Of a stretch of 64,000 nt of DNA, positions 1 to 16,310 are shown piece by piece. Source of the stretch: a virus (lineage: Duplodnaviria; Heunggongvirae; Uroviricota; Caudoviricetes). Each line of letters opens with the position of its first letter. Within the stretch, counting starts at the first letter, position 1. The notes beneath the pieces were generated by a model that was given only the letters and a program-made list of their open reading frames with translations, searched no databases and was not told the DNA's origin. The translations under genes and the position numbers were made by a program. The DNA is taken from IMG/VR virus record IMGVR_UViG_3300046820_001896, one strand, 5' to 3'.

Positions 1-149
1 GCGAAAAGCAAGTGTGCCAGCACCAGCGAATGTATCGAGTATGATTCTAAATGGTAACGTAGCAAAGAGGCCTTGCACTTTCTTCATACGGAAGCTAACA
101 TTGGTTCGAATCCAATCGTTACCACCAGTTGTTGATATATAATTAGTAC

Positions 150-224
150 GCCGGTTTAGCTCAGTGGTAGAGCAACCGCCTTGTAAGCGGTAGGTCGTCA
201 GTTCAATCCCGACAACCGGCACCA
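150..224 (+). tRNA. tRNA-Thr (anticodon TGT)
   Basis: Cloverleaf built by hand. Acceptor gccggtt/aaccggc, anticodon stem accgc/gcggt with loop cttgtaa, T-loop ttcaatc, 3' CCA encoded. Confidence 0.85.
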
Positions 225-232
225 AAGTTTTT

Positions 233-306
233 GCTCTATTCGTATATTGGTATTATATCGGTTTTGTAGTCCGACGAAGGTGGTTCGATTCCATCATGGA
301 GCACCA
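233..306 (+). tRNA. tRNA-like gene, paralogous scaffold to tRNA-Arg at 1124, probable anticodon TGT (loop tttgtag), degenerate
   Basis: Acceptor gctctat/atggagc pairs with two G-U. T-arm ggtgg-ttcgatt-ccatc is identical to the Arg gene. D-stem has only 3 bp, anticodon stem 4 bp plus one mismatch, variable loop 4 nt. Confidence 0.45.
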
Positions 307-316
307 ATAAATTTAT

Positions 317-393
317 CGGAGTGTAGCGCAGTCTGGTAGCGCACCTGGTTTGGGACCAGGGGGTCCAAGGTTCGAATCCTTGTACTCCGACCA
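317..393 (+). tRNA. tRNA-Pro (anticodon TGG)
   Basis: Acceptor cggagtg/tactccg, anticodon stem cctgg/ccagg with loop tttggga, T-arm caagg-ttcgaat-ccttg, CCA encoded. Confidence 0.85.
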
Positions 394-406
394 TTTAGGA
401 GTTAGT

Positions 407-598
407 ATGAGTGATGGTGGAAAAGGATGTAAACCAAGACCGTTTAGTGTATCACAAGATGAATATGATAAACGATGGGATACAATTTTTCAACGTGATC
501 TTCCAAAAGAAGAAAACGTTGAAGAAGTAAAAGATGAAAAAGAAGTAAAAATTAAAGCAACTATCCCAGATTTAAAAATCAAAGGTAGTGTAGATTAA
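407..598 (+). CDS. hypothetical small acidic protein (64 aa)
   Basis: The listed ORF 350-598 starts inside tRNA-Pro. ATG at 407 follows an RBS taggag. The sequence is Lys/Glu-rich. Confidence 0.45.
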   Translation: MSDGGKGCKPRPFSVSQDEYDKRWDTIFQRDLPKEENVEEVKDEKEVKIKATIPDLKIKGSVD

Positions 599-603
599 TA
601 TAT

Positions 604-679
604 GCGGGATTAGCTCAGTTGGTAGAGCGATACCTTGCCAAGGTATAGGTCGAGAGTTCGAGCCTCTTATCCCGCTCCA
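604..679 (+). tRNA. tRNA-Gly (anticodon GCC)
   Basis: Acceptor gcgggat/atcccgc, anticodon stem atacc/ggtat with loop ttgccaa, T-loop ttcgagc, CCA encoded. Confidence 0.85.
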
Positions 680-685
680 AATAAT

Positions 686-768
686 GCCCCGATGGTGGAA
701 TGGTAGACACGCTGGTCTTAGAAGCCAGTGCCTAGTGCGTGAGAGTTCGAGTCTCTCTTGGGGCACCA
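686..768 (+). tRNA. tRNA-Leu (anticodon TAG), type II with long variable arm
   Basis: Acceptor gccccga/ttggggc, anticodon loop cttagaa, long variable arm tgcctagtgcgtgag, T-arm gagag-ttcgagt-ctctc, CCA encoded. Confidence 0.85.
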
Positions 769-784
769 CATAATATAGGATGAT

Positions 785-1042
785 ATGATAAAGCCATTAC
801 GTAAGAACGTTATAATCGAAGAGATCGCTACTGAAAATGTATCGAGTTCAGGAATTATTCTACAAGGTAAACGCACTGATGTTAAACATTCAAAAGTGTT
901 AGCTATTGGAGATAACGTTACAGAAGTAAAAGTTGATGATGTAGTAGTAGTTGATTGGCAGTATGCATCAAAATCATCATATAAAGATAAAACGTTTTTT
1001 GTAATCGCAGAGGAAAATGTGATTGCAGTTGTAGAAGAATAA
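785..1042 (+). CDS. GroES-like co-chaperonin (functional analogue of T4 gp31)
   Basis: The 85-aa protein follows the GroES pattern (IKPL..V.I.....S.GIIL......H.KV.AIG.....VKV.D.VV). RBS aggatga precedes the start. Confidence 0.7.
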   Translation: MIKPLRKNVIIEEIATENVSSSGIILQGKRTDVKHSKVLAIGDNVTEVKVDDVVVVDWQYASKSSYKDKTFFVIAEENVIAVVEE

Positions 1043-1043
1043 T

Positions 1044-1119
1044 CCCAATTAAGCTAATCTAGTGAAAGCGCTGGTCTGAAAAGCCAGATAGTCTGGAGCG
1101 TAACCAGAAGTTGGGACCA
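1044..1119 (+). tRNA. tRNA-like element (76 nt, anticodon loop ctgaaaa = GAA) with non-canonical T-loop AGCGTAA
   Basis: 7-bp acceptor cccaatt/agttggg plus CCA. Anticodon stem ctggt/gccag. T-stem tctgg/ccaga is perfect but the loop agcgtaa lacks TTC, and the D-arm is atypical. Confidence 0.4.
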
Positions 1120-1123
1120 ATGC

Positions 1124-1198
1124 GCGCGATTAGTATAATGGACAATATTCGAGGCTACGAACTTCGAGATGGTGGTTCGATTCCATCATTGCGCACCA
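1124..1198 (+). tRNA. tRNA-Arg (anticodon ACG)
   Basis: Acceptor gcgcgat/attgcgc, D-stem gtat/atat, anticodon stem cgagg/cttcg with loop ctacgaa, T-arm ggtgg-ttcgatt-ccatc, CCA encoded. Confidence 0.8.
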
Positions 1199-1206
1199 GA
1201 GACAGT

Positions 1207-1301
1207 GCTCCTGTAGTTTAACGGTAAAACTCCAAGCTTATACCTTGGCGATGTCTCTAGATGAGGGAATGATATCGGTTCGAATCCGGTCGGGAGTACC
1301 A
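1207..1301 (+). tRNA. type-II-like tRNA (95 nt) with anticodon TAT and a 25-nt variable region; identity uncertain (Ile-UAU-like or a mutated Leu scaffold)
   Basis: Acceptor gctcctg/cgggagt with two G-U pairs. D-arm gttt-aacggta-aaac. Perfect anticodon stem ccaag/cttgg with loop cttatac. T-arm atcgg-ttcgaat-ccggt. Discriminator is A and CCA is encoded. Confidence 0.55.
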
Positions 1302-1309
1302 AAGTACTA

Positions 1310-1340
1310 CATGTACAAATTGTGTTGAATGTGATATAAT
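1310..1340 (+). promoter_or_regulatory. sigma70-like early promoter, member of reiterated family (cATGTACA -35-like, 17-nt spacer, TGtGaTATAAT extended -10)
   Basis: catgtaca at 1310-1317 and tataat at 1335-1340. The same architecture recurs about 10 times in the window, each time 20-45 nt upstream of a plus-strand ATG. Confidence 0.6.
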
Positions 1341-1365
1341 AGATTATACATTGTAAAGGAATAAT

Positions 1366-1941
1366 ATGCAAATCAATCTTCGTAAAGCAAACGCTATTCA
1401 GTCTGAAATCCGCAAGGCAATCAGCAGCGTAAAGGTAGAAAATAACATCACAGTAAGTGAATTCACTAGTGATGTAGATGCAGCTTTGAGTAAAGGTGCA
1501 TTAGAGTTCAACCAAGCGGTTGAACGTAAAGAAGCGCTTAACGATGCGCTATTCCAAATTCGTGCTGCAGTTGGTCGTGCAAACGCATCTGCAGGTATTA
1601 GCGATCTTTTGGCTGAAGTTGAAAACTTCGATGCGAAGATCAACCTAAAAACAGTTGTTGCAACAAGCACACCACGTAAAGAGATCACAGAGATCAATGC
1701 ACGTATCGTGAAAGCTAAGTCTGCTACTGGCGATAGAATGTCACTGTATGGTGATCGTCTAAGCAACGTAGAAACTGGTGTTGCAACAGAAGAAGCTATT
1801 CGCGTAGCTAAAGAGGAAGTAAAACGCCTTAAGCGCGAAAAGCAAGCATTAAGCGATAAGCTTTTGCAGTTGAATGTCAATACTCTAATTGAGTTGACAG
1901 ATAAAACAAAGGTAACTTTGACTGCAGAAGGCATTATCTAA
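1366..1941 (+). CDS. hypothetical protein (191 aa, predicted alpha-helical)
   Basis: RBS aaagga 8 nt upstream, and the promoter at 1310-1340 precedes it. The overlapping minus ORF 1398-1934 is rejected. Confidence 0.6.
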   Translation: MQINLRKANAIQSEIRKAISSVKVENNITVSEFTSDVDAALSKGALEFNQAVERKEALNDALFQIRAAVGRANASAGISDLLAEVENFDAKINLKTVVATSTPRKEITEINARIVKAKSATGDRMSLYGDRLSNVETGVATEEAIRVAKEEVKRLKREKQALSDKLLQLNVNTLIELTDKTKVTLTAEGII

Positions 1942-1944
1942 AGT

Positions 1945-2205
1945 TTTGAAGATAGTGATGATAGGAGAGCCTTGCATTTTGACAAGCGCACAAAACTATC
2001 CATTACTGGATAGGTTTAAGCCCTGAAAGCTTAATCCGAACAATCGACCAACTTATACATAATTGCTCTCGAATAACATGACTCGAAAAGTCGCTGCTTA
2101 TTGCTCTCGAGAACCAATTGTTTGTGGTCTGCTTATTGCAAATTGCTTAATGCAGATTGCTGAGCGACTTGTCGCAGGTTTGAATTGATTCATTATCTTC
2201 ATCTT
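1945..2205. repeat. non-coding region with short direct repeats (ttgctctcgaRaac x2, cttattgc x3) and hairpin gcgac-ttg-tcgc
   Basis: No ORF with a start and RBS in 260 bp. Repeats seen by eye. It sits between a CDS and tRNA-Trp. Confidence 0.4.
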
Positions 2206-2210
2206 AATAT

Positions 2211-2284
2211 GTCTCGGTGGTGTAATGGCAGCACTGCGGTCTCCAAAACCGTTAGTGGGGGTTCGAGTCCCTCCCGGGATGCCA
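2211..2284 (+). tRNA. tRNA-Trp (anticodon CCA)
   Basis: Acceptor gtctcgg/ccgggat, anticodon stem gcggt/accgt with loop ctccaaa, T-arm ggggg-ttcgagt-ccctc, CCA encoded. Confidence 0.8.
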
Positions 2285-2341
2285 AACAATGGCGTGGGTA
2301 GCAAGGAAAGATAGATTAGATTCTACACCTGCGTCGCCAAT

Positions 2342-2415
2342 GCGGGATTAGTTTAGTGGTAAAACGACATCCTTCCAAGTTGTAGTTGCGAGTTCGATTC
2401 TCGCATCCCGCTCCA
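2342..2415 (+). tRNA. tRNA-Gly (anticodon TCC)
   Basis: Perfect acceptor gcgggat/atcccgc. Anticodon stem acatc/gttgt has one internal mismatch, loop cttccaa. T-arm gcgag-ttcgatt-ctcgc, CCA encoded. Confidence 0.7.
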
Positions 2416-2443
2416 ATAAAGAATTGCTGCTAATTTTTAAAGA

Positions 2444-2677
2444 ATGTTTTATATAATAACTAAAGATGGTTTCACATTGAATGCTAGTCCAACGTTGGAT
2501 GATGCAATGATTTTTGCTAAACATTATGGACGGTTTGTAACCATCAAAGGGAAAGATTTTGAAGCATGTGGTGTATTTGGCGTAGATTCTATTAAAGACG
2601 GAATATGTCCAGATGGCATTGCATATGATTGGAATAAAAAATCACGCATTGGTCGTGTAAAGAAAGAACGTAAATGA
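2444..2677 (+). CDS. hypothetical protein (77 aa)
   Basis: ORF lying between tRNA genes, with a basic C-terminus. Confidence 0.45.
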   Translation: MFYIITKDGFTLNASPTLDDAMIFAKHYGRFVTIKGKDFEACGVFGVDSIKDGICPDGIAYDWNKKSRIGRVKKERK

Positions 2678-2705
2678 AACGAAAACATAAACCTCGAAAA
2701 CCTAT

Positions 2706-2780
2706 GGGGGTATAACTTAACGGCTAAAGTACCTGGCTTTTAACCAGATAATCAGAGTTCGATTCTCTGTGCCCCTACCA
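2706..2780 (+). tRNA. tRNA-Lys (anticodon TTT)
   Basis: Acceptor gggggta/tgcccct, D-stem actt/aagt, anticodon loop cttttaa, T-arm cagag-ttcgatt-ctctg, CCA encoded. Confidence 0.8.
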
Positions 2781-2818
2781 TAAATCAAAGTATATTCACT
2801 GAGTGTATTTCGATCTAT

Positions 2819-2892
2819 GGTGTTAGTAGTGTAGTGGCTGCACGATTGTCTGTGAAACAATAAGAGAGGGTTCGATTCCCCCTTTCACCCCA
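2819..2892 (+). tRNA. tRNA-His (anticodon GTG), with extra 5' G pairing to C73
   Basis: Perfect anticodon stem attgt/acaat with loop ctgtgaa. T-arm gaggg-ttcgatt-ccccc. Acceptor has two internal T-T mismatches and the CCA is only partly encoded. Confidence 0.55.
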
Positions 2893-2900
2893 AAATTTAT

Positions 2901-2974
2901 GCCTCGGTAGTTTAAAAGTAGAACACCCTCCTTACAAGTGGAAGACGGCGGAGCGTTACCGCAACGAGGTACCA
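2901..2974 (+). tRNA. tRNA-like element or pseudo-tRNA with non-canonical T-loop AGCGTTA (same oddity as 1044-1119)
   Basis: Acceptor gcctcgg/acgaggt gives 6 of 7 bp, followed by A-CCA. T-stem ggcgg/ccgca. No good anticodon stem could be formed (candidate loop cttacaa). Confidence 0.3.
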
Positions 2975-3010
2975 AGATAAATAGTTAGAAGAGAAACAAA
3001 TGAGGTAGTT

Positions 3011-3616: not shown

Positions 3617-4162
3617 ATGAAAAGCTATATTTCTGTATTTGATAATGTTCTTGAAGAAGACTTTTGTAAAAATCTTCGAGAGAAATTTGAACGAAGTAAA
3701 GATGTTTGGGTTAGACGTGACGATAAGTTTAAAACATTTAATGAGATCAACTTCGGTCAATATCCAATTTTTGCTGAAGAGCAAAATACTATTCTTTCTA
3801 AAGTTCAGCCATACGTACAAAAGTACTGTGAGCAATGGGATATTAAATTTTTCCCAGAACAAATTGGCTTCGAACAAGTGCGTATGAAAAAATACGAAGT
3901 CGGTGGAAAAGAAGAGTTTCGCCATCACGTTGACGTAGGCGATTATGCATCTGCTCGACGTTTTCTTGTCATGTTTTTTTATCTCAATAATGTTGCTGAA
4001 GGCGGTGAAACTGCTTTCATTGGTATTAATGACGATCAACGGGTTTCACCCAAAACAGGTCGCTTGCTAATGTTTCCACCAATGTGGACACATCCTCATG
4101 CAGGTTTGCCACCTATCACCAATCCAAAATATATCGTAGGTACATACCTGCATTATACCTAA
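3617..4162 (+). CDS. 2OG-Fe(II) oxygenase superfamily protein (prolyl-4-hydroxylase-like)
   Basis: HHVD ... GGETAF ... RLLMFP..H spacing matches the HxD...H iron-binding triad. The listed ORF start 3587 lies inside the terminator, so ATG 3617 is used. Confidence 0.6.
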   Translation: MKSYISVFDNVLEEDFCKNLREKFERSKDVWVRRDDKFKTFNEINFGQYPIFAEEQNTILSKVQPYVQKYCEQWDIKFFPEQIGFEQVRMKKYEVGGKEEFRHHVDVGDYASARRFLVMFFYLNNVAEGGETAFIGINDDQRVSPKTGRLLMFPPMWTHPHAGLPPITNPKYIVGTYLHYT

Positions 4163-4172
4163 AGTACTACAT

Positions 4173-4200
4173 GTACAGCAGGATATTTTTGTGGTATAAT
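4173..4200 (+). promoter_or_regulatory. sigma70-like early promoter of the catgtaca...tgtggtataat family
   Basis: tgtaca at 4173-4178, 16-nt spacer, tgtggtataat with tataat at 4195-4200. The flanking aaagtactacatgtaca is identical to that at 1301-1317. Confidence 0.6.
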
Positions 4201-12853: not shown

Positions 12854-13363
12854 ATGAAAACGCACATTTTAGGCAATGGTCCTTCCAATATATTATATGA
12901 ACCAAGCGATGGATACGTAATCGGTTGTAATGTACAAACCCATCCAGTTGATATATCAATTGCTGTTGATATAAAACCATTCCATTTGTACATGGCAAAT
13001 AGGATGATTTTTCAAGGTAAACCTATCATCACTTCTCAATATGCTATGGATGGAATTAAACATAAAGACATTGAGAAAGAACTAGACATCATTTATAAGT
13101 TACCTTTTTTAGAAAAATATATGAGTGCAGGTCATATCGCTGCAAAATGGGCAATTGATAATGGATACACAGAAATTCATCTATGGGGATTTGACTCAAT
13201 TTGGTCAGATAGCCAAGAAACAAAAACTGACATACTAATTCCTAGAGATAGACGGCAACACGACTTACCTATCCATTGGAGAGAAAAATGGCAACAATTT
13301 AAAACATACAACATAATCGTGCATAACACAATAGAAGGCACACAACTGAAAGACTTAATATGA
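12854..13363 (+). CDS. hypothetical protein (169 aa)
   Basis: ORF preceded by the palindromic tatttataaata motif. Confidence 0.5.
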   Translation: MKTHILGNGPSNILYEPSDGYVIGCNVQTHPVDISIAVDIKPFHLYMANRMIFQGKPIITSQYAMDGIKHKDIEKELDIIYKLPFLEKYMSAGHIAAKWAIDNGYTEIHLWGFDSIWSDSQETKTDILIPRDRRQHDLPIHWREKWQQFKTYNIIVHNTIEGTQLKDLI

Positions 13364-13638
13364 ACAAGAACCAAATACAAGAGATTGATTTCGATTTCGG
13401 GTTTACTGCTGTCGATGAGGAAGAACTTGAAGCGGTACAAACAGTCACTGCACAAGTAGAAGCAACAAGCGGGGAAGTAGAGACACTTAAAGAAAAGTTG
13501 AAGACGCTACGTGCATGTATCGAACCACTACTAAAGAATCTGGAAGCAAATCCTGAGAAAGCATACATCCACTGGCCAGATCGTACAAGCAAGGTTAAGG
13601 CATTTAGGAGTAAATTAGACTCGATACAAAAGTTCTAA
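13360..13638 (+). CDS. hypothetical acidic protein
   Basis: ORF with ATGA overlap of the upstream gene. Confidence 0.5.
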   Translation: MNKNQIQEIDFDFGFTAVDEEELEAVQTVTAQVEATSGEVETLKEKLKTLRACIEPLLKNLEANPEKAYIHWPDRTSKVKAFRSKLDSIQKF

Positions 13639-13680
13639 TTTCACCTGGTGAAATGCACCACATCCAAGTCCCTCCGTGCA

Positions 13681-13707
13681 AGCCAATGATTTCATTGGCT
13701 TTTTCTT
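13681..13707 (+). terminator. rho-independent terminator
   Basis: agccaatga-tttc-attggct followed by TTTTCTT. Confidence 0.6.
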
Positions 13708-13742
13708 GCTGAAAAAAAAGTGAAAATATTTCGCCCAGGCTA

Positions 13743-13771
13743 TGTACAAACTGCAGGAAACGCTGTATAAT
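13743..13771 (+). promoter_or_regulatory. sigma70-like promoter of the catgtaca...tgtataat family
   Basis: tgtaca at 13743-13748, 17-nt spacer, tgtataat ending 13771. Confidence 0.55.
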
Positions 13772-13802
13772 GGTTACATAAATTGAAAAAGCGAGGTAAA
13801 TT

Positions 13803-14150
13803 ATGAAATACACATTAGACGAAGGCATCTCAAAAGCTGTACAACTTATGCAAGATAGTTACATTAATTTGTACAAAGCTCGCGCTGATGACAATGCTGC
13901 ACGCAAAGTTTTTGCTGCAGAACAAGTAGAAAAGTTTATCAAAACTACACGTATTGAAAAAGGTCGTAACTATGTAAAAATTGCCGCTGATGGTAGCGTT
14001 AAATTTTTTGTCGTAGCAAAAGCAACAAAAGGTTTTAATGTCGGTGATATTTTGAAAGCTGCATCGTGGCGTGCACCAGCAACAAACTTTGCACGCGGTA
14101 ACGTTATCGATGGAGATTTTAGTCAAATTACATGGACAGGAGCATACTAA
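13803..14150 (+). CDS. hypothetical protein (115 aa)
   Basis: RBS gaggtaaatt precedes the ATG. Confidence 0.55.
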   Translation: MKYTLDEGISKAVQLMQDSYINLYKARADDNAARKVFAAEQVEKFIKTTRIEKGRNYVKIAADGSVKFFVVAKATKGFNVGDILKAASWRAPATNFARGNVIDGDFSQITWTGAY

Positions 14151-14302
14151 TGATTCGAGTAGTAATTGGTTTTCTGATAGTTTTTGGTGCAGTTGGTGGC
14201 ATGGACAGTGGTACTGATGCGCAATTACCTGCACAGATCGCTCTGGCGGTTACAGGATTGGCATTGATGTACTTTGGTACTAAAAAAATAAATGCGAATT
14301 AA
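14150..14302 (+). CDS. small membrane protein (about 50 aa, below the ORF-track cutoff)
   Basis: ATG overlaps the upstream stop (taATGa). Translated by hand as MIRVVIGFLIVFGAVGGMDSG... Confidence 0.35.
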   Translation: MIRVVIGFLIVFGAVGGMDSGTDAQLPAQIALAVTGLALMYFGTKKINAN

Positions 14303-14312
14303 TTCGCAAAAA
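14290..14312. terminator. perfect palindrome tgcgaattaattcgca flanked by A/T runs (bidirectional hairpin)
   Basis: 16-bp palindrome with aaaaa downstream and ttttt on the opposite strand. Confidence 0.4.
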
Positions 14313-14316
14313 GCAT

Positions 14317-14344
14317 GTACAAACAAGAAAAAGTGTGGTATAAT
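14317..14344 (+). promoter_or_regulatory. sigma70-like promoter of the catgtaca...gtgtggtataat family
   Basis: tgtaca at 14317-14322, 16-nt spacer, tataat at 14339-14344, ending 5 nt before ATG 14350. Confidence 0.55.
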
Positions 14345-14349
14345 TAATC

Positions 14350-14508
14350 ATGACAAAACGAAAGGTAACTCGCAAAGCAAATCCGATAGCGAAAGATTTG
14401 CGTACACCGAAGTACCGCATGCGTGTTGTCAAAAGCAAGAAAGCTTACACACGTAAGCAACGTAGTGAAATCATTAACATTGAAATGGAGTTAAATCATG
14501 GGTCGTAA
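14350..14508 (+). CDS. ArfA-like alternative ribosome-rescue factor homolog (52 aa, very basic), possibly translated from a leaderless mRNA
   Basis: Hand-translated MTKRKVTRKANPIAKDLRTPKYRMRVVKSKKAYTRKQRSEIINIEMELNHGS. The core resembles the E. coli ArfA segment [28 protein letters not shown], recalled from memory. The ORF is below the track cutoff. Confidence 0.4.
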   Translation: MTKRKVTRKANPIAKDLRTPKYRMRVVKSKKAYTRKQRSEIINIEMELNHGS

Positions 14509-14983
14509 AGCACGTGTTTATCAAGCAGAATTTGTTCAAAAGTTCGAAGACAAGTTCTATTCAGAATTCCCTCAAGTAAAGAGTGGTGGTACATTCCTTT
14601 GGAAAGATGCAGTTAAAGTCATGCGTCAACTTGGTTTGAATCCACGTAACGGTAACGAATATCCGTTTTACTTCTTTACTAACAAAGTTTCGAAAGGCGT
14701 TTACAAAATGCCAACGAAACCAGCATTGATCGCTGGTACACCTGCAGCAACTGCAGCAAGCATCGTTAAATCGAAGCAACCAAAGGTAGCGAAGACGCCT
14801 AAAGCGACAGTAGCTCGCGTGTCCGCACCGAAAGTCACCACAGCTGTGACACGTATTAAGAAGTCAGATAAGTCCGATTCAGATATCGGCACTGGTGGAT
14901 TCGACAACGATGTATCATTCGATGACGTAGCATCTCTGCGCGGCGAATTTGGTCTCGGCGAATTCCGTAACACACTAGACTAA
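14498..14983 (+). CDS. hypothetical protein (161 aa), Ala/Lys-rich centre
   Basis: RBS ggag precedes the ATG. Confidence 0.55.
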   Translation: MGRKARVYQAEFVQKFEDKFYSEFPQVKSGGTFLWKDAVKVMRQLGLNPRNGNEYPFYFFTNKVSKGVYKMPTKPALIAGTPAATAASIVKSKQPKVAKTPKATVARVSAPKVTTAVTRIKKSDKSDSDIGTGGFDNDVSFDDVASLRGEFGLGEFRNTLD

Positions 14984-15070
14984 GCTCCTTTCCTTTCGCT
15001 TAGACTGACCACCACATTCGGGAGAATCTGGCTATATAGGTCGCCGCATTAGAGTAAGCGGCTCCATTTA

Positions 15071-15259
15071 TTGAAAGGCTATATGATTAGACTTTGGTTG
15101 GCATTTTTCGTAATATTTTTTCTGTTTTATGTTGGTATTCCTACATTCCATAAACTCACTGGTCGTGAGAAGTGGGCTGTAACGAAGATCGCATTGTACA
15201 GTTTTGTGTGCTCTTTGCTTGCAATCGGCGCAATGATTTTGATCGTGATTTTATTTTAA
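15071..15259 (+). CDS. small membrane protein (62 aa)
   Basis: Two hydrophobic helices. Confidence 0.4.
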   Translation: MKGYMIRLWLAFFVIFFLFYVGIPTFHKLTGREKWAVTKIALYSFVCSLLAIGAMILIVILF

Positions 15260-15277
15260 GGATTTATATGAAGACAT

Positions 15278-16065
15278 CTATGAAACTCTTGGCTATCGCA
15301 ATGGCCGTCGCTGCACTCCCAGCATGTACACGTATTGAGACTGGCGAAGTCGGTGTACGAGTTGGTTTCGATAAACAAGTTCAACAAGGCGAACTCTTGC
15401 CTGGTTCGTTCAATCAAGTGTTGATTGGTGATGTGCTTACATTCCCAATCAAAGATGTGAACGTTAAGCTCGAAGATATGACACCTGTTGCAAAAGACAA
15501 TAGCACAATGAAAGACTTCGATGCTGTTGTAATCTATAACATCAATCAAGCACAAGTCGCTGAGCTCTATAGCCAAAAGAGTCAAGCATTCCACGCTCGT
15601 CATAACGGCGACATCTATCTGATGTACAACTATATCGTTCAAACTACTCGTAATGCTATTTACAAAGAAGCACGTAAATACGAAGCATTAGACATGGCTG
15701 ACAATCGTCAAGCAATGGAACAAGCAATCAAAGAACAGATCCAGAAATCACTCGCTGAAGAAAAGCTTGATGGTAGTTTGATGATCGGTCAAGTGTTGAT
15801 TCGTAACATCGTTCCTGCTGATTCAGTCGTTGAGAGTGCAAACGCATTGGTTCGTGCAAAGAACGAACTAAAGCAAAAAGAAGTTGAAGTGCGTACAGCT
15901 AAAATGGAAGCTGAACGTATGCAAGCATTGTCCAATCAAGGTGCAAGTTCTATCGCATACATGAATGCTCAAGCTGCATTGAACATCTCTGAAGGTATTA
16001 AGAACGGTAAAGTGCAAACCATCGTTGTACCTAGCAACATGACTGGCTTGATGATTGGAAAATGA
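15278..16065 (+). CDS. SPFH/band-7 domain lipoprotein
   Basis: Lipobox LPAC after a signal peptide, and an SPFH-like N-terminus ETGEVGVRVGF. The listed ORF start 15172 is an upstream extension. RBS aaggattt. Confidence 0.6.
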
Positions 16066-16310
16066 TGATTATTAATAAAGATACACTCCGCAAAGAACTT
16101 AAAGAAGGTGTGAAAACGATCACCTTCACTAAGACTGATGGCACTCAACGTGTATTGAAGTGCACTCTACAAGAATTTGTGTTGCCACAAGTAGATGCTA
16201 CTAAATTAGTAACTGCCAAAAAGCAGAACGATGAAGCACTTGCAGTGTGGGACATTGAGAACGCAGGGTGGAGATCATTTAGGTATGATTCAATCATCAG
16301 CGTCGTATAA
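16062..16310 (+). CDS. hypothetical protein (82 aa)
   Basis: ORF with ATGA overlap of the upstream gene. Confidence 0.4.
   Translation: MMIINKDTLRKELKEGVKTITFTKTDGTQRVLKCTLQEFVLPQVDATKLVTAKKQNDEALAVWDIENAGWRSFRYDSIISVV

What the first reader, a model, noticed from the sequence alone, without database searches (positions are those of the whole stretch)
14350..14508. Phage-encoded ArfA-like ribosome-rescue factor, possibly on a leaderless transcript
The unlisted 52-codon ORF encodes a very basic peptide. Its core, PIAKDLRTPKYRMRVVKSKKAYTRK, parallels the E. coli ArfA segment that threads the empty mRNA channel (recalled as [28 protein letters not shown]). The family promoter -10 (14339-14344) ends 5 nt before the ATG. 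The transcript would therefore start at or next to the AUG, giving leaderless translation. A phage copy could manage stalled ribosomes during host mRNA degradation or support the phage tRNA set.
Basis: partly seen in the sequence, partly recalled or inferred. Interest (0 to 1): 0.65.

Follow-up and report, generated by a model that had tools for sequence, protein, structure and literature searches.

The report
Short ArfA-like phage peptide, leaderless gene
A 52-codon early gene of an uncultured T4-like phage encodes a real, conserved, very basic peptide that is a stripped-down relative of the bacterial ribosome-rescue factor ArfA, and it appears to be made from an mRNA that starts at its AUG; the rescue function itself is untested.

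Summary
The 52-codon ORF (14350-14508), the peptide, the TGgTATAAT box ending 5 nt before the ATG, and the recalled E. coli ArfA sequence are all correct.

The ORF is a gene. Relatives differ mainly at synonymous sites, and the family has about 1,084 clusters at 50% identity and at least 574 viral loci.

The direct Pfam scores are below threshold: DUF7230 15.8 bits, ArfA 11.8 bits. Homology to ArfA is still solid through intermediates:
- The window family matches short KGKGS-bearing ArfA proteins (hhalign 98.1%, E 1e-13).
- Those short proteins match E. coli ArfA (98.2%; PDB chains E 1.7e-15).
- One phage protein passes both Pfam thresholds.
- P0216 carries both motifs.

Members with the same AKDLRTPKY core sit among housekeeping genes in SAR86 and SAR11 genomes.

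The peptide is a stripped-down variant. It lacks the GKG insert, the N-terminal minidomain, the RF2-contacting residues A18/L19/L24, and the arfA-type mRNA hairpin.

The promoter-ATG abutment is kept across the diverged clade and recurs in two other viral lineages, which favours leaderless expression.

Rescue activity and the transcription start remain untested. I call it a new variant of a known kind, of moderate interest.

The parts
14293..14308 (.). Short palindromic hairpin (TGCGAATTAATTCGCA) between the upstream 50-aa membrane-peptide ORF and the promoter. It has terminator-like T-runs only on the minus strand. Clade relatives carry GGGGCCCC at the same place.
14316..14321 (+). -35-like hexamer TGTACA of the window's early-promoter family ((A)TGTACA or GTTTACA), 17 nt upstream of the -10.
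   Evidence: The same element sits 17-18 nt upstream of the other TGGTATAAT boxes at 4192, 17070, 19600, 22587 and 29003.
14336..14344 (+). Extended -10, TGgTATAAT. The hexamer is 14339-14344.
14345..14349 (+). 5-nt spacer (taatc) between the -10 and the ATG. A start at A14350 would give a leaderless mRNA.
   Evidence: Length is conserved while sequence varies (taatc, atatc, atctc, agatc, ggatc) in relatives; L051 has 6 nt.
14350..14508 (+). 52-codon ORF encoding a short ArfA-superfamily peptide of the DUF7230 branch.
14380..14457 (+). Conserved core, N11-K36 (NPIAKDLRTPKYRMRVVKSKKAYTRK), which aligns to E. coli ArfA N14-K42 with a 3-residue gap at G35-K36-G37.
14487..14490 (+). GGAG Shine-Dalgarno of the downstream gene, lying inside the peptide's last codons. 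It constrains the variable C-terminus (...E-L-N-H/Y-G-S).
14498..14983 (+). Downstream 161-aa gene. It overlaps the peptide ORF by 11 nt, is syntenic in all clade relatives, and has no known family.

Best explanation
The ORF is a genuine early gene of an uncultured T4-like myovirus. It encodes a minimal member of the ArfA superfamily, in the branch Pfam calls DUF7230.

Inferred mechanism, by homology.
- The basic stretch K28-R38 occupies the mRNA channel of a ribosome stalled at the 3' end of a truncated mRNA.
- The near-invariant segment A14-R25 (AKDLRTPKYRMR) sits in the A site, where ArfA residues 17-28 sit.
- A class-I release factor is thereby licensed to hydrolyse the peptidyl-tRNA. This frees ribosomes stalled on messages cut during infection, without tmRNA tagging.

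The release-factor contacts must differ from those of E. coli ArfA, because the N-terminal minidomain and A18/L19/L24 are absent.

Expression. A sigma70-type early promoter ends 5 nt before the AUG, so the mRNA is most likely leaderless. The peptide has its own stop codon and no arfA-type hairpin, so it would be made constitutively. The next gene is translationally coupled to it.

Shown: the gene is real, it is homologous to ArfA, the family also has cellular members, and the promoter layout is conserved. Inferred: ribosome binding, release-factor recruitment, and the transcription start.
For: Coding.
- Synonymous changes dominate in codons 1-31.
- The family is large and has 8 invariant residues.

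Homology chain.
- Window family A1 against short KGKGS-type ArfA (A5, no classical members): hhalign 98.1%, E 1e-13.
- A5 against enterobacterial ArfA: 98.2%, E 4.3e-14.
- The A5 profile finds only ArfA chains in the PDB, E 1.7e-15.
- Direct A1 against classical ArfA: P 0.0012, 35 columns, 40% identity, same register.

Bridging sequences.
- P0216 (MRNPVAKDLRTPKYRKRVERKRKGKGSYTRKGK; PF03889, named ArfA by JGI) is 69% identical to the window peptide, E 1e-11.
- The phage J2-1 protein passes both Pfam cut-offs: ArfA 41.3 bits, DUF7230 28.6 bits.
- SAR11 chromosomes encode MKKKNLIAKDLRTPKYRSRIVKPKKGKGSFKRKKR.

Cellular members lie among housekeeping genes: tatC and acs in SAR86; nth and pfkB, or an SDR and a nitroreductase, in SAR11.

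Retained ArfA positions: N14, I16, L20, P23, F25 (as Y), R26, R28, V29, K31, K33, K34, Y39, R41, K42.

Size fits. Forty-seven residues of ArfA suffice for function (PMC5378476), and ArfT is 40 aa (PMC6299226).

Leaderless layout.
- This is the only one of the window's TGGTATAAT promoters without a 20-55 nt leader carrying a Shine-Dalgarno.
- The 5-6 nt spacing is kept in 12 IMG/VR clade loci spanning five clusters at 70% identity.
- The same layout, with consensus promoters, occurs in two unrelated lineages: L079/L097 and L090.
- Counts are 21 of 80 loci against 5 of 832 other ORFs. Collapsed to lineages, P is about 0.001.
Against: - The peptide alone misses both Pfam cut-offs, and the A1 profile alone does not reach ArfA in the PDB.
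- The KGKGS motif is lost.
- ArfA's A18, L19 and L24 are K, D and K here. In ArfA, L19 and L24 form the hydrophobic patch that binds RF2 Trp319, and A18T kills release.
- ArfA residues 1-10 (of its 13-residue N-terminal segment) have no aligned counterpart; the peptide's first 10 residues are a basic stretch.
- Only three basic residues follow T34, then an acidic and hydrophobic tail. Truncating ArfA after M40 abolishes its activity.
- No DUF7230 member has been tested; a literature search for the name finds nothing.
- The canonical +1, 7 nt after the -10, would be the U of the AUG. A start at G14352 would lose the start codon.
Confidence: 0.55

Rival explanations
1. The peptide binds the ribosome like ArfA but only plugs it. 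It occupies the empty mRNA channel and decoding centre without activating a release factor. It could then block tmRNA-SmpB or host rescue, or park vacant ribosomes, as a host-takeover or hibernation-type factor.
For: The residues and the N-terminal minidomain that couple ArfA binding to RF2 opening are missing. The basic composition is retained. It is an early gene in T4-like phages, for example next to rIIA in Ac42.
Against: The most conserved part of the family, AKDLRTPKYRMR, corresponds to ArfA's A-site and RF-contact segment rather than to the tail. That argues for a specific partner. Chromosomal copies among housekeeping genes in the streamlined SAR11 and SAR86 genomes fit a beneficial rescue factor better than an inhibitor. 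The 40-aa ArfT activates release factors without an ArfA-like minidomain.
Confidence: 0.2
2. It is a generic basic nucleic-acid-binding peptide, for example one that coats DNA or RNA or travels as an internal virion protein. On this view the ArfA relationship is historical only.
For: About 35% of residues are Lys or Arg. There is no functional data. The family tolerates loss of KGKGS.
Against: Eight invariant, non-repetitive residues including D16, P20 and Y22 are not what charge-driven binding predicts. Homology to a ribosome-specific factor is strong. The gene sits among early genes, not structural ones.
Confidence: 0.12
3. It mimics the N-terminus of ribosomal protein uS14 (type Z: ..IAKQKRTPKF.VR..YTR), either competing for or replacing a uS14-rRNA contact in the 30S head.
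For: The best PDB hit of the family profile is the uS14 type Z N-terminus. Residues IAK..RTPKY match.
Against: E is 0.71 over 16 residues, which is not significant. The ArfA link is supported at E 1e-13 to 1e-15 over the whole core.
Confidence: 0.03
4. It is not a gene. The promoter at 14316-14344 serves the 161-aa gene at 14498, and the 52-codon frame is an incidental ORF in its leader.
For: The ORF is small and has no Shine-Dalgarno, and its 3' end carries the downstream gene's ribosome-binding site.
Against: Changes are overwhelmingly synonymous. Homologous peptides occur in hundreds of unrelated phage and bacterial contexts with other neighbours. The mRNA shows no significant structure, z -1.1, and matches no Rfam family.
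Confidence: 0.02

Closest known systems
ArfA (alternative ribosome-rescue factor A, Pfam PF03889; E. coli YhdL, PDB 5H5U/5MDV/5U4I)
   Same: Homologous over the whole functional core in one register. Shares N14, I16, L20, P23, the aromatic at 25, R26, R28, V29, K31, K33, K34, Y39, R41 and K42. It is a small basic peptide of about the size of the minimal active ArfA (47 aa).
   Different: Below the PF03889 cut-off. G35-K36-G37 are deleted. A18, L19 and L24 are K, D and K. ArfA residues 1-10 (of its 13-residue N-terminal segment) have no aligned counterpart; the peptide has a basic stretch there instead. It has its own stop codon and no RNase III/terminator hairpin, so there is no tmRNA-linked regulation. 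Here it is phage-encoded and apparently leaderless.
DUF7230 (Pfam PF23876) / phrog_20887, for example Acinetobacter phage Ac42 gp Ac42p003
   Same: Same core motif, RNPIAKDLRTPKYRMRVV.SK..Y.RK. 59 of the 74 aligned family sequences (the window peptide plus 73 homologs) hit this model. Ac42p003 scores 51.6 bits. The window peptide hits phrog_20887 at E 9.4e-7.
   Different: The window peptide itself scores only 15.8 bits against a cut-off of 27. It has a longer basic N-terminus and a clade-specific C-terminus. Ac42 and phiM12 homologs have ordinary Shine-Dalgarno leaders. The family carries no functional annotation.
Short KGKGS-bearing ArfA of phages and marine bacteria (Citromicrobium phage RXM gp10, pelagiphage HTVC027P gp30, Caulobacter phage Cr30, SAR11 chromosomal copies)
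   Same: Same short format of 35-60 aa, the same N-terminal RNP(I/V)A(K/R).L motif, and in SAR11 and P0216 the identical AKDLRTPKY core. Already annotated as phage ArfA in genome papers (PMC8953757, PMC12753301).
   Different: They keep KGKGS and pass PF03889. None has been tested either.
ArfT (Francisella tularensis, 40 aa)
   Same: A very short, basic, release-factor-dependent rescue factor. It has a degenerate KGKGS-like tail and no arfA-type mRNA regulation (PMC6299226). This shows that a minimal peptide can do the job.
   Different: ArfT is reported only in Francisella and is thought to have evolved independently.
Leaderless phage and bacterial mRNAs (for example lambda cI from P_RM; from general knowledge)
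   Same: The -10 box lies a few bases from the start codon, there is no Shine-Dalgarno, and the AUG would be at the 5' end.
   Different: The transcription start is not mapped here. Recurrence of this layout for one gene family across several phage lineages has, as far as I could find, not been described.

Membership tests
ArfA (PF03889) | Match to the curated family profile at or above the gathering score | tested here: not met
   11.8 bits against a cut-off of 25.5, E 0.17, residues 18-39 to profile 19-43. Only 3 of 74 family members reach E<1.
ArfA (PF03889) | Common ancestry with experimentally characterised ArfA (profile-profile, same register) | tested here: met
   A1 against A5: 98.1%, E 1e-13. 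A5 against classical ArfA: 98.2%, E 4.3e-14. A5 against PDB ArfA: E 1.7e-15. Direct A1 against A2: P 0.0012. J2-1 passes both Pfam models.
ArfA (PF03889) | Conserved KGKGS motif in the channel-binding tail | tested here: not met
   K31 is followed directly by A32-Y33, a 3-residue gap at G35-K36-G37. Only 1 of 146 top family representatives has G[KR]G[ST]. The literature says no single residue of the motif is essential.
ArfA (PF03889) | Positively charged C-terminal segment able to fill the mRNA channel | tested here: inconclusive
   K28, K30, K31, R35, K36 and R38 are present. After R38 the tail is acidic and hydrophobic and is constrained by the overlapping ribosome-binding site. ArfA truncated after M40 is inactive. 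Binding itself cannot be tested here.
ArfA (PF03889) | Hydrophobic patch L19/L24/F25 and A18 that contact RF2 (Trp319, V198, F217) and H69 | tested here: not met
   The aligned residues are D16, K21, Y22 and K15. Only the aromatic is kept.
ArfA (PF03889) | N-terminal minidomain (aa 1-20) whose folding opens RF2 | tested here: not met
   The 10 residues before N11 are a basic stretch (MTKRKVTRKA). Many family members have only 2-6 residues there.
ArfA (PF03889) | Synthesis from a truncated non-stop mRNA (hairpin, RNase III or terminator), linking it to tmRNA activity | tested here: not met
   The ORF ends at TAA 14506-14508. Whole-ORF folds give z -1.08 and -1.09. The 6-bp hairpin at 14443-14458 is not conserved in relatives.
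ArfA (PF03889) | RF2-dependent release on non-stop ribosomes; synthetic lethality with ssrA | not testable with these tools
   Needs biochemistry or genetics.
DUF7230 (PF23876) | Match to the curated profile at or above the gathering score | tested here: not met
   15.8 bits against a cut-off of 27 for the window peptide. However, 59 of the 74 aligned family sequences hit the model, with a best E of 4.6e-7.
DUF7230 (PF23876) | Core motif and size (about 40-55 aa, ..NP.AKDLRTPKYR.RVV.SK..Y.RK) | tested here: met
   All 8 invariant columns are present. phrog_20887 at E 9.4e-7. The family profile recovers 1,084 clusters with a median length of 51 aa.
Leaderless mRNA | Promoter -10 positioned so that transcription starts at the A of the AUG; no Shine-Dalgarno | tested here: met
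   TGgTATAAT ends 5 nt before the ATG. C at -1 and A at +1 are possible. No Shine-Dalgarno within 20 nt.
Leaderless mRNA | The arrangement is conserved rather than accidental | tested here: met
   The 5-6 nt spacing is kept in all 12 IMG/VR clade loci despite spacer substitutions, and recurs in L079/L097 and L090. Counts are 21 of 80 against 5 of 832; lineage-collapsed P is about 0.001.
Leaderless mRNA | Mapped 5' end at the AUG and 70S-dependent initiation | not testable with these tools
   Needs 5'-RACE, dRNA-seq or toeprinting.

The most novel reading that the evidence does not exclude
DUF7230 peptides are a mechanistically distinct and very widespread class of minimal ribosome-rescue factors. 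On this reading they are the alternative rescue system of SAR11, SAR86 and other marine bacteria, and hundreds of phage lineages have borrowed them. They would engage the release factor through the charged AKDLRTPKY surface rather than ArfA's hydrophobic patch and minidomain, possibly accepting RF1 as well as RF2, as ArfT does. In phages they would be hard-wired for constitutive synthesis that needs no Shine-Dalgarno, by being placed on leaderless mRNAs.
Probability: 0.3. Interest if true: 0.75.

Novelty: new variant of a known kind. Interest (0 to 1): 0.55.

Why it matters
Linking DUF7230 to ArfA gives a testable function to a family of more than a thousand small-protein clusters. The family includes chromosomal genes of two of the ocean's most abundant bacterial groups and genes of hundreds of phages.

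The variant lacks the elements that explain RF2 activation by E. coli ArfA. If it rescues ribosomes, it would show what the minimal requirements for factor-assisted, stop-codon-independent termination are.

For phage biology, it suggests that recycling ribosomes stalled on cleaved mRNAs is a common early-infection need. The repeated leaderless layout offers a natural system for studying why a translation factor would be expressed without a Shine-Dalgarno.

Tried and rejected
- Near-identical DNA search of 13000-16000 against GenBank phages: no match. The phage is uncultured; its nearest relatives by gp6 are Melnitz and HTVC008M at 40-42%.
- NCBIfam: no hit for the peptide or its neighbour.
- Single-sequence and family-profile searches of the PDB did not reach ArfA. 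The only hit was the uS14 type Z N-terminus at E 0.71. I considered this as a mimicry lead and rejected it in favour of the far stronger ArfA chain.
- Direct hhalign against enterobacterial ArfA alone gave only 19% probability. A first intermediate alignment (A4) contained Providencia ArfA and so was partly circular. I rebuilt it without classical members as A5.
- arfA-like regulatory RNA: no significant fold and no Rfam family.
- Downstream 161-aa gene: no Pfam, PHROG or NCBIfam family and no tblastn match in phages.
- tblastn with the SAR11 peptide against phages was largely defeated by the low-complexity filter.
- The 'MYN...' N-termini of many DUF7230 members spell ATG-TAT-AAT. I considered counting them as further leaderless cases. 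I left them as ambiguous, because some have no second ATG.
- Structure prediction was not attempted. ArfA is unfolded off the ribosome and the tool cannot model ribosome complexes.

Full report
**Observation.** ORF 14350..14508 (+) encodes the 52-aa peptide MTKRKVTRKANPIAKDLRTPKYRMRVVKSKKAYTRKQRSEIINIEMELNHGS. TATAAT lies at 14339-14344 and is preceded by TG at 14336-14337. Five bases (taatc) separate it from the ATG. The consensus scan reports TGTACA-17-TATAAT, 10 of 12, with the TG extension. No Shine-Dalgarno-like motif lies within 20 nt of the ATG. The neighbouring genes at 13803, 14150 and 14498 carry GAGG, AGGAG and GGAG at normal spacing. The recalled E. coli ArfA sequence is exact: it is identical to PDB 5H5U chain 3.

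**Is it a gene?** Yes.
- Four syntenic clade relatives from metagenomes (L009-L016) differ from the window in codons 1-31 at 8:1, 9:1, 9:3 and 13:4 synonymous:non-synonymous codons.
- A word-indexed search of 5.8 billion proteins found 73 homologs. Their alignment (A1) has invariant A14, D16, L17, R18, P20, K21, Y22 and R25, with consensus RNPIAKDLRTPKYRMRVVxSKxxYxRK.
- An exhaustive profile search of 1.84 billion representatives found 1,084 clusters at E<=1e-3 and 133 at E<=1e-10. Median length is 51 aa.
- IMG/VR holds at least 574 loci.
- GenBank phages with homologs include the Acinetobacter T4-like phages (Ac42p003, two genes from rIIA), Sinorhizobium phiM12 and Roseobacter CRP phages.
- The region has no significant RNA fold (z about -1.1) and no Rfam family.

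**What family?** On its own the peptide is below every curated cut-off: DUF7230 15.8 bits (cut-off 27), ArfA 11.8 bits (cut-off 25.5, E 0.17), nothing in NCBIfam, and phrog_20887 at E 9.4e-7. Of the 74 aligned family sequences (the window peptide plus 73 homologs), 59 hit DUF7230 and only 3 reach ArfA at E<1. The family profile does not reach ArfA in the PDB. Its best hit there is the uS14 type Z N-terminus at E 0.71.

**Homology through intermediates.** A tblastn search with E. coli ArfA found phage ArfA-like ORFs. Extracting them shows a continuum.
- pf16 has a classical core (72.5 bits to ArfA).
- Pseudoalteromonas phage J2-1 ATN93434 passes both Pfam cut-offs: ArfA 41.3 bits and DUF7230 28.6 bits.
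- Cr30, Citromicrobium RXM gp10 and an unannotated ORF in Roseobacter phage CRP-212 pass ArfA, yet begin with the DUF7230-type RNP(I/V/L)A motif.

A profile search seeded with those three returned 57 short proteins, nearly all PF03889-positive. They include P0216, MRNPVAKDLRTPKYRKRVERKRKGKGSYTRKGK, which carries the window's core and ArfA's KGKGSY together. P0216 is 69% identical to the window peptide, E 1e-11. I then built alignment A5, which contains no classical ArfA. The results:
- A1 against A5: 98.1% probability, E 1e-13.
- A5 against enterobacterial ArfA: 98.2%, E 4.3e-14.
- A5 against the PDB: only ArfA chains, E 1.7e-15.

I conclude that DUF7230 is a branch of the ArfA superfamily and the window peptide belongs to it.

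**Cellular members.** A scan of one genome per species found the AKDLRTPKY core in 27 loci, mostly marine bacteria.
- In SAR86 (contigs up to 322 kb) the gene overlaps the end of tatC and precedes acetyl-CoA synthetase.
- In Pelagibacterales it lies beside endonuclease III and a PfkB kinase, or beside an SDR and a nitroreductase.
- SAR11 copies keep KGKGS (MKKKNLIAKDLRTPKYRSRIVKPKKGKGSFKRKKR). SAR86 copies lack GKG, like the window (..RLKIEKNKKKYTRK).

This is the setting expected of a cellular translation factor that phages have acquired.

**How far does it resemble working ArfA?** I mapped the peptide onto E. coli ArfA with the alignment.
- Kept: N14, I16, L20, P23, F25 (as Y22), R26, R28, V29, K31, K33, K34, Y39, R41, K42.
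- Lost: G35-K36-G37 are deleted. A18 becomes K15, L19 becomes D16 and L24 becomes K21. ArfA residues 1-10 (of its 13-residue N-terminal segment) have no aligned counterpart; the peptide's first 10 residues are a basic stretch.

According to the structural literature:
- Residues 15-31 contact RF2, and F25 sits in the V198/F217 pocket.
- L19, L24 and F25 bind Trp319 of the switch loop, and A18T abolishes release.
- Residues 31-48 fill the mRNA tunnel. Forty-seven residues suffice for function, but truncation after M40 inactivates.
- No single KGKGS residue is essential (PMC5378476, PMC6299226).

The window peptide therefore keeps the A-site strand and part of the basic tail, but not the elements that explain RF2 activation. 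The 40-aa ArfT of Francisella shows that a minimal peptide can still recruit RF1 or RF2. The strongest conservation in DUF7230 falls on the segment that corresponds to ArfA's factor-contacting region, not on the tail. That argues for a specific partner rather than simple charge-driven binding.

**Expression.** The window carries a promoter family: (A)TGTACA or GTTTACA, then 17-18 nt, then TGGTATAAT. It occurs at 4192, 14336, 17070, 19600, 22587 and 29003, with a related site at 13765. Every other member is followed by a 20-55 nt leader with a Shine-Dalgarno. Only 14336 abuts an ATG.
- In clade relatives the spacer sequence varies (taatc, atatc, atctc, agatc, ggatc) but its length stays at 5 nt. 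L051 is the one exception, with 6 nt. This holds in all 12 IMG/VR clade loci, which span five clusters at 70% peptide identity.
- The same layout appears with this gene in unrelated viral lineages. L079 and L097 have TTTACT-17-TATAAT-6-ATG, and L090 has TTGACA-17-TATAAT-6-ATG.
- Exact TATAAT lies 4-7 nt before the start in 21 of 80 loci, against 5 of 832 other ORFs in the same loci (Fisher P 2e-19). With the window clade counted once, P is about 0.001.
- Ac42, phiM12 and the bacterial copies have ordinary or coupled starts.

Leaderless expression is therefore well supported but not proven. The canonical +1 would fall on the U of the AUG, and a start at G14352 is also possible.

The ORF has its own stop codon and overlaps the next gene by 11 nt. 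That gene's GGAG (14487-14490) lies inside the peptide's last codons, which explains the variable C-terminus. The 161-aa neighbour is syntenic in the clade and has no detectable relatives elsewhere.

**Genome context.** The window belongs to an uncultured T4-like myovirus. It has baseplate wedge and hub genes. Its gp6 is 42% identical to Methylophilales phage Melnitz and 40% to pelagiphage HTVC008M. It also carries a cluster of 12-14 tRNA genes. The host is unknown.

**Known or new?** Phage ArfA genes are already annotated and briefly discussed for Citromicrobium phage RXM and pelagiphage HTVC027P (PMC8953757, PMC12753301). A phage-encoded ArfA as such is therefore not new. I found no paper that mentions DUF7230, and none that links ArfA, phages and leaderless mRNAs. 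What may be new:
- assigning DUF7230 to the ArfA superfamily;
- its chromosomal presence in SAR11 and SAR86;
- its minimal architecture, which lacks ArfA's activation elements;
- the recurrent leaderless layout.

**Verdict.** Best explanation: a constitutively expressed, minimal ArfA-type rescue factor whose release-factor contacts differ from those of E. coli ArfA (confidence about 0.55). Main rival: a channel-binding peptide that does not trigger release (about 0.2).

Noticed in passing
L001 1489..1614 (Roseobacter phage CRP-212, MZ892988.1) and L002 1489..1614 (CRP-13, MW514247.1): Both phages have an unannotated 41-aa ArfA-type ORF. The CRP-212 ORF scores 33.3 bits to PF03889 and lies in another reading frame inside the acidic C-terminal tail of annotated gp38. 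The CRP-13 ORF lacks GKG, has a GTG start, and overlaps the annotated N-terminus of gp52. These are either overprinted genes or mis-annotated neighbours.
   Followed up: partly
window 14350-14356 with 14425-14432; same positions in L009, L011, L014, L015: The 5' AUGAC(A/U)A can pair with codons 26-28, U(U/A)GUCA(U). The A-to-U change at base 6 co-occurs with a U-to-A change in the partner, and both changes are synonymous. This is a single compensatory event. It could occlude the 5'-terminal AUG of a leaderless mRNA. The whole-ORF fold is not significant.
   Followed up: partly
L078/L121 position 1116 (116 aa); L098/L108 about 620 (98 aa); L080 position 1971: Other genes in related viral contigs also have TATAAT 4-7 nt before their ATG. 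Leaderless genes may be a broader habit of these phages.
   Followed up: no
many DUF7230 members (for example P0039, L082, L102): N-termini reading M-Y-N are encoded by ATG-TAT-AAT. In the L070 group a second ATG follows the TATAAT by 6 nt, after a TTGCCT-17 spacing. The annotated start may therefore be wrong there, and the TATAAT may be a promoter element.
   Followed up: partly
window 53-2971: A cluster of 12 tRNA genes by ARAGORN. It includes two tRNA-Thr(UGU) and a 95-nt tRNA-Ile(UAU) at 1207-1301, which may carry an intron or a long insert. Rfam calls two more tRNA-like sequences, at 1044-1116 and 2901-2971.
   Followed up: no
window 4150-4200: Back-to-back divergent promoters of the same family: GTATAAT on the minus strand at 4158 and TGGTATAAT on the plus strand at 4192. 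They share a palindromic GTACATGTAGTAC region.
   Followed up: no
window 14150-14302: A 50-aa hydrophobic, membrane-like peptide gene with a strong AGGAG lies directly upstream. It is replaced by different 51-70-aa ORFs in clade relatives.
   Followed up: no
window 15172-16310 and L009-L016: The conserved downstream block encodes a Band_7/SPFH protein and a WYL_2-domain protein in all clade relatives. Their function in the phage is unknown.
   Followed up: no
L018, L019, L025, L028 (SAR86) position 3001: The SAR86 chromosomal peptide gene starts 17 nt inside the end of tatC and has no Shine-Dalgarno. This suggests translational coupling to tatC.
   Followed up: partly
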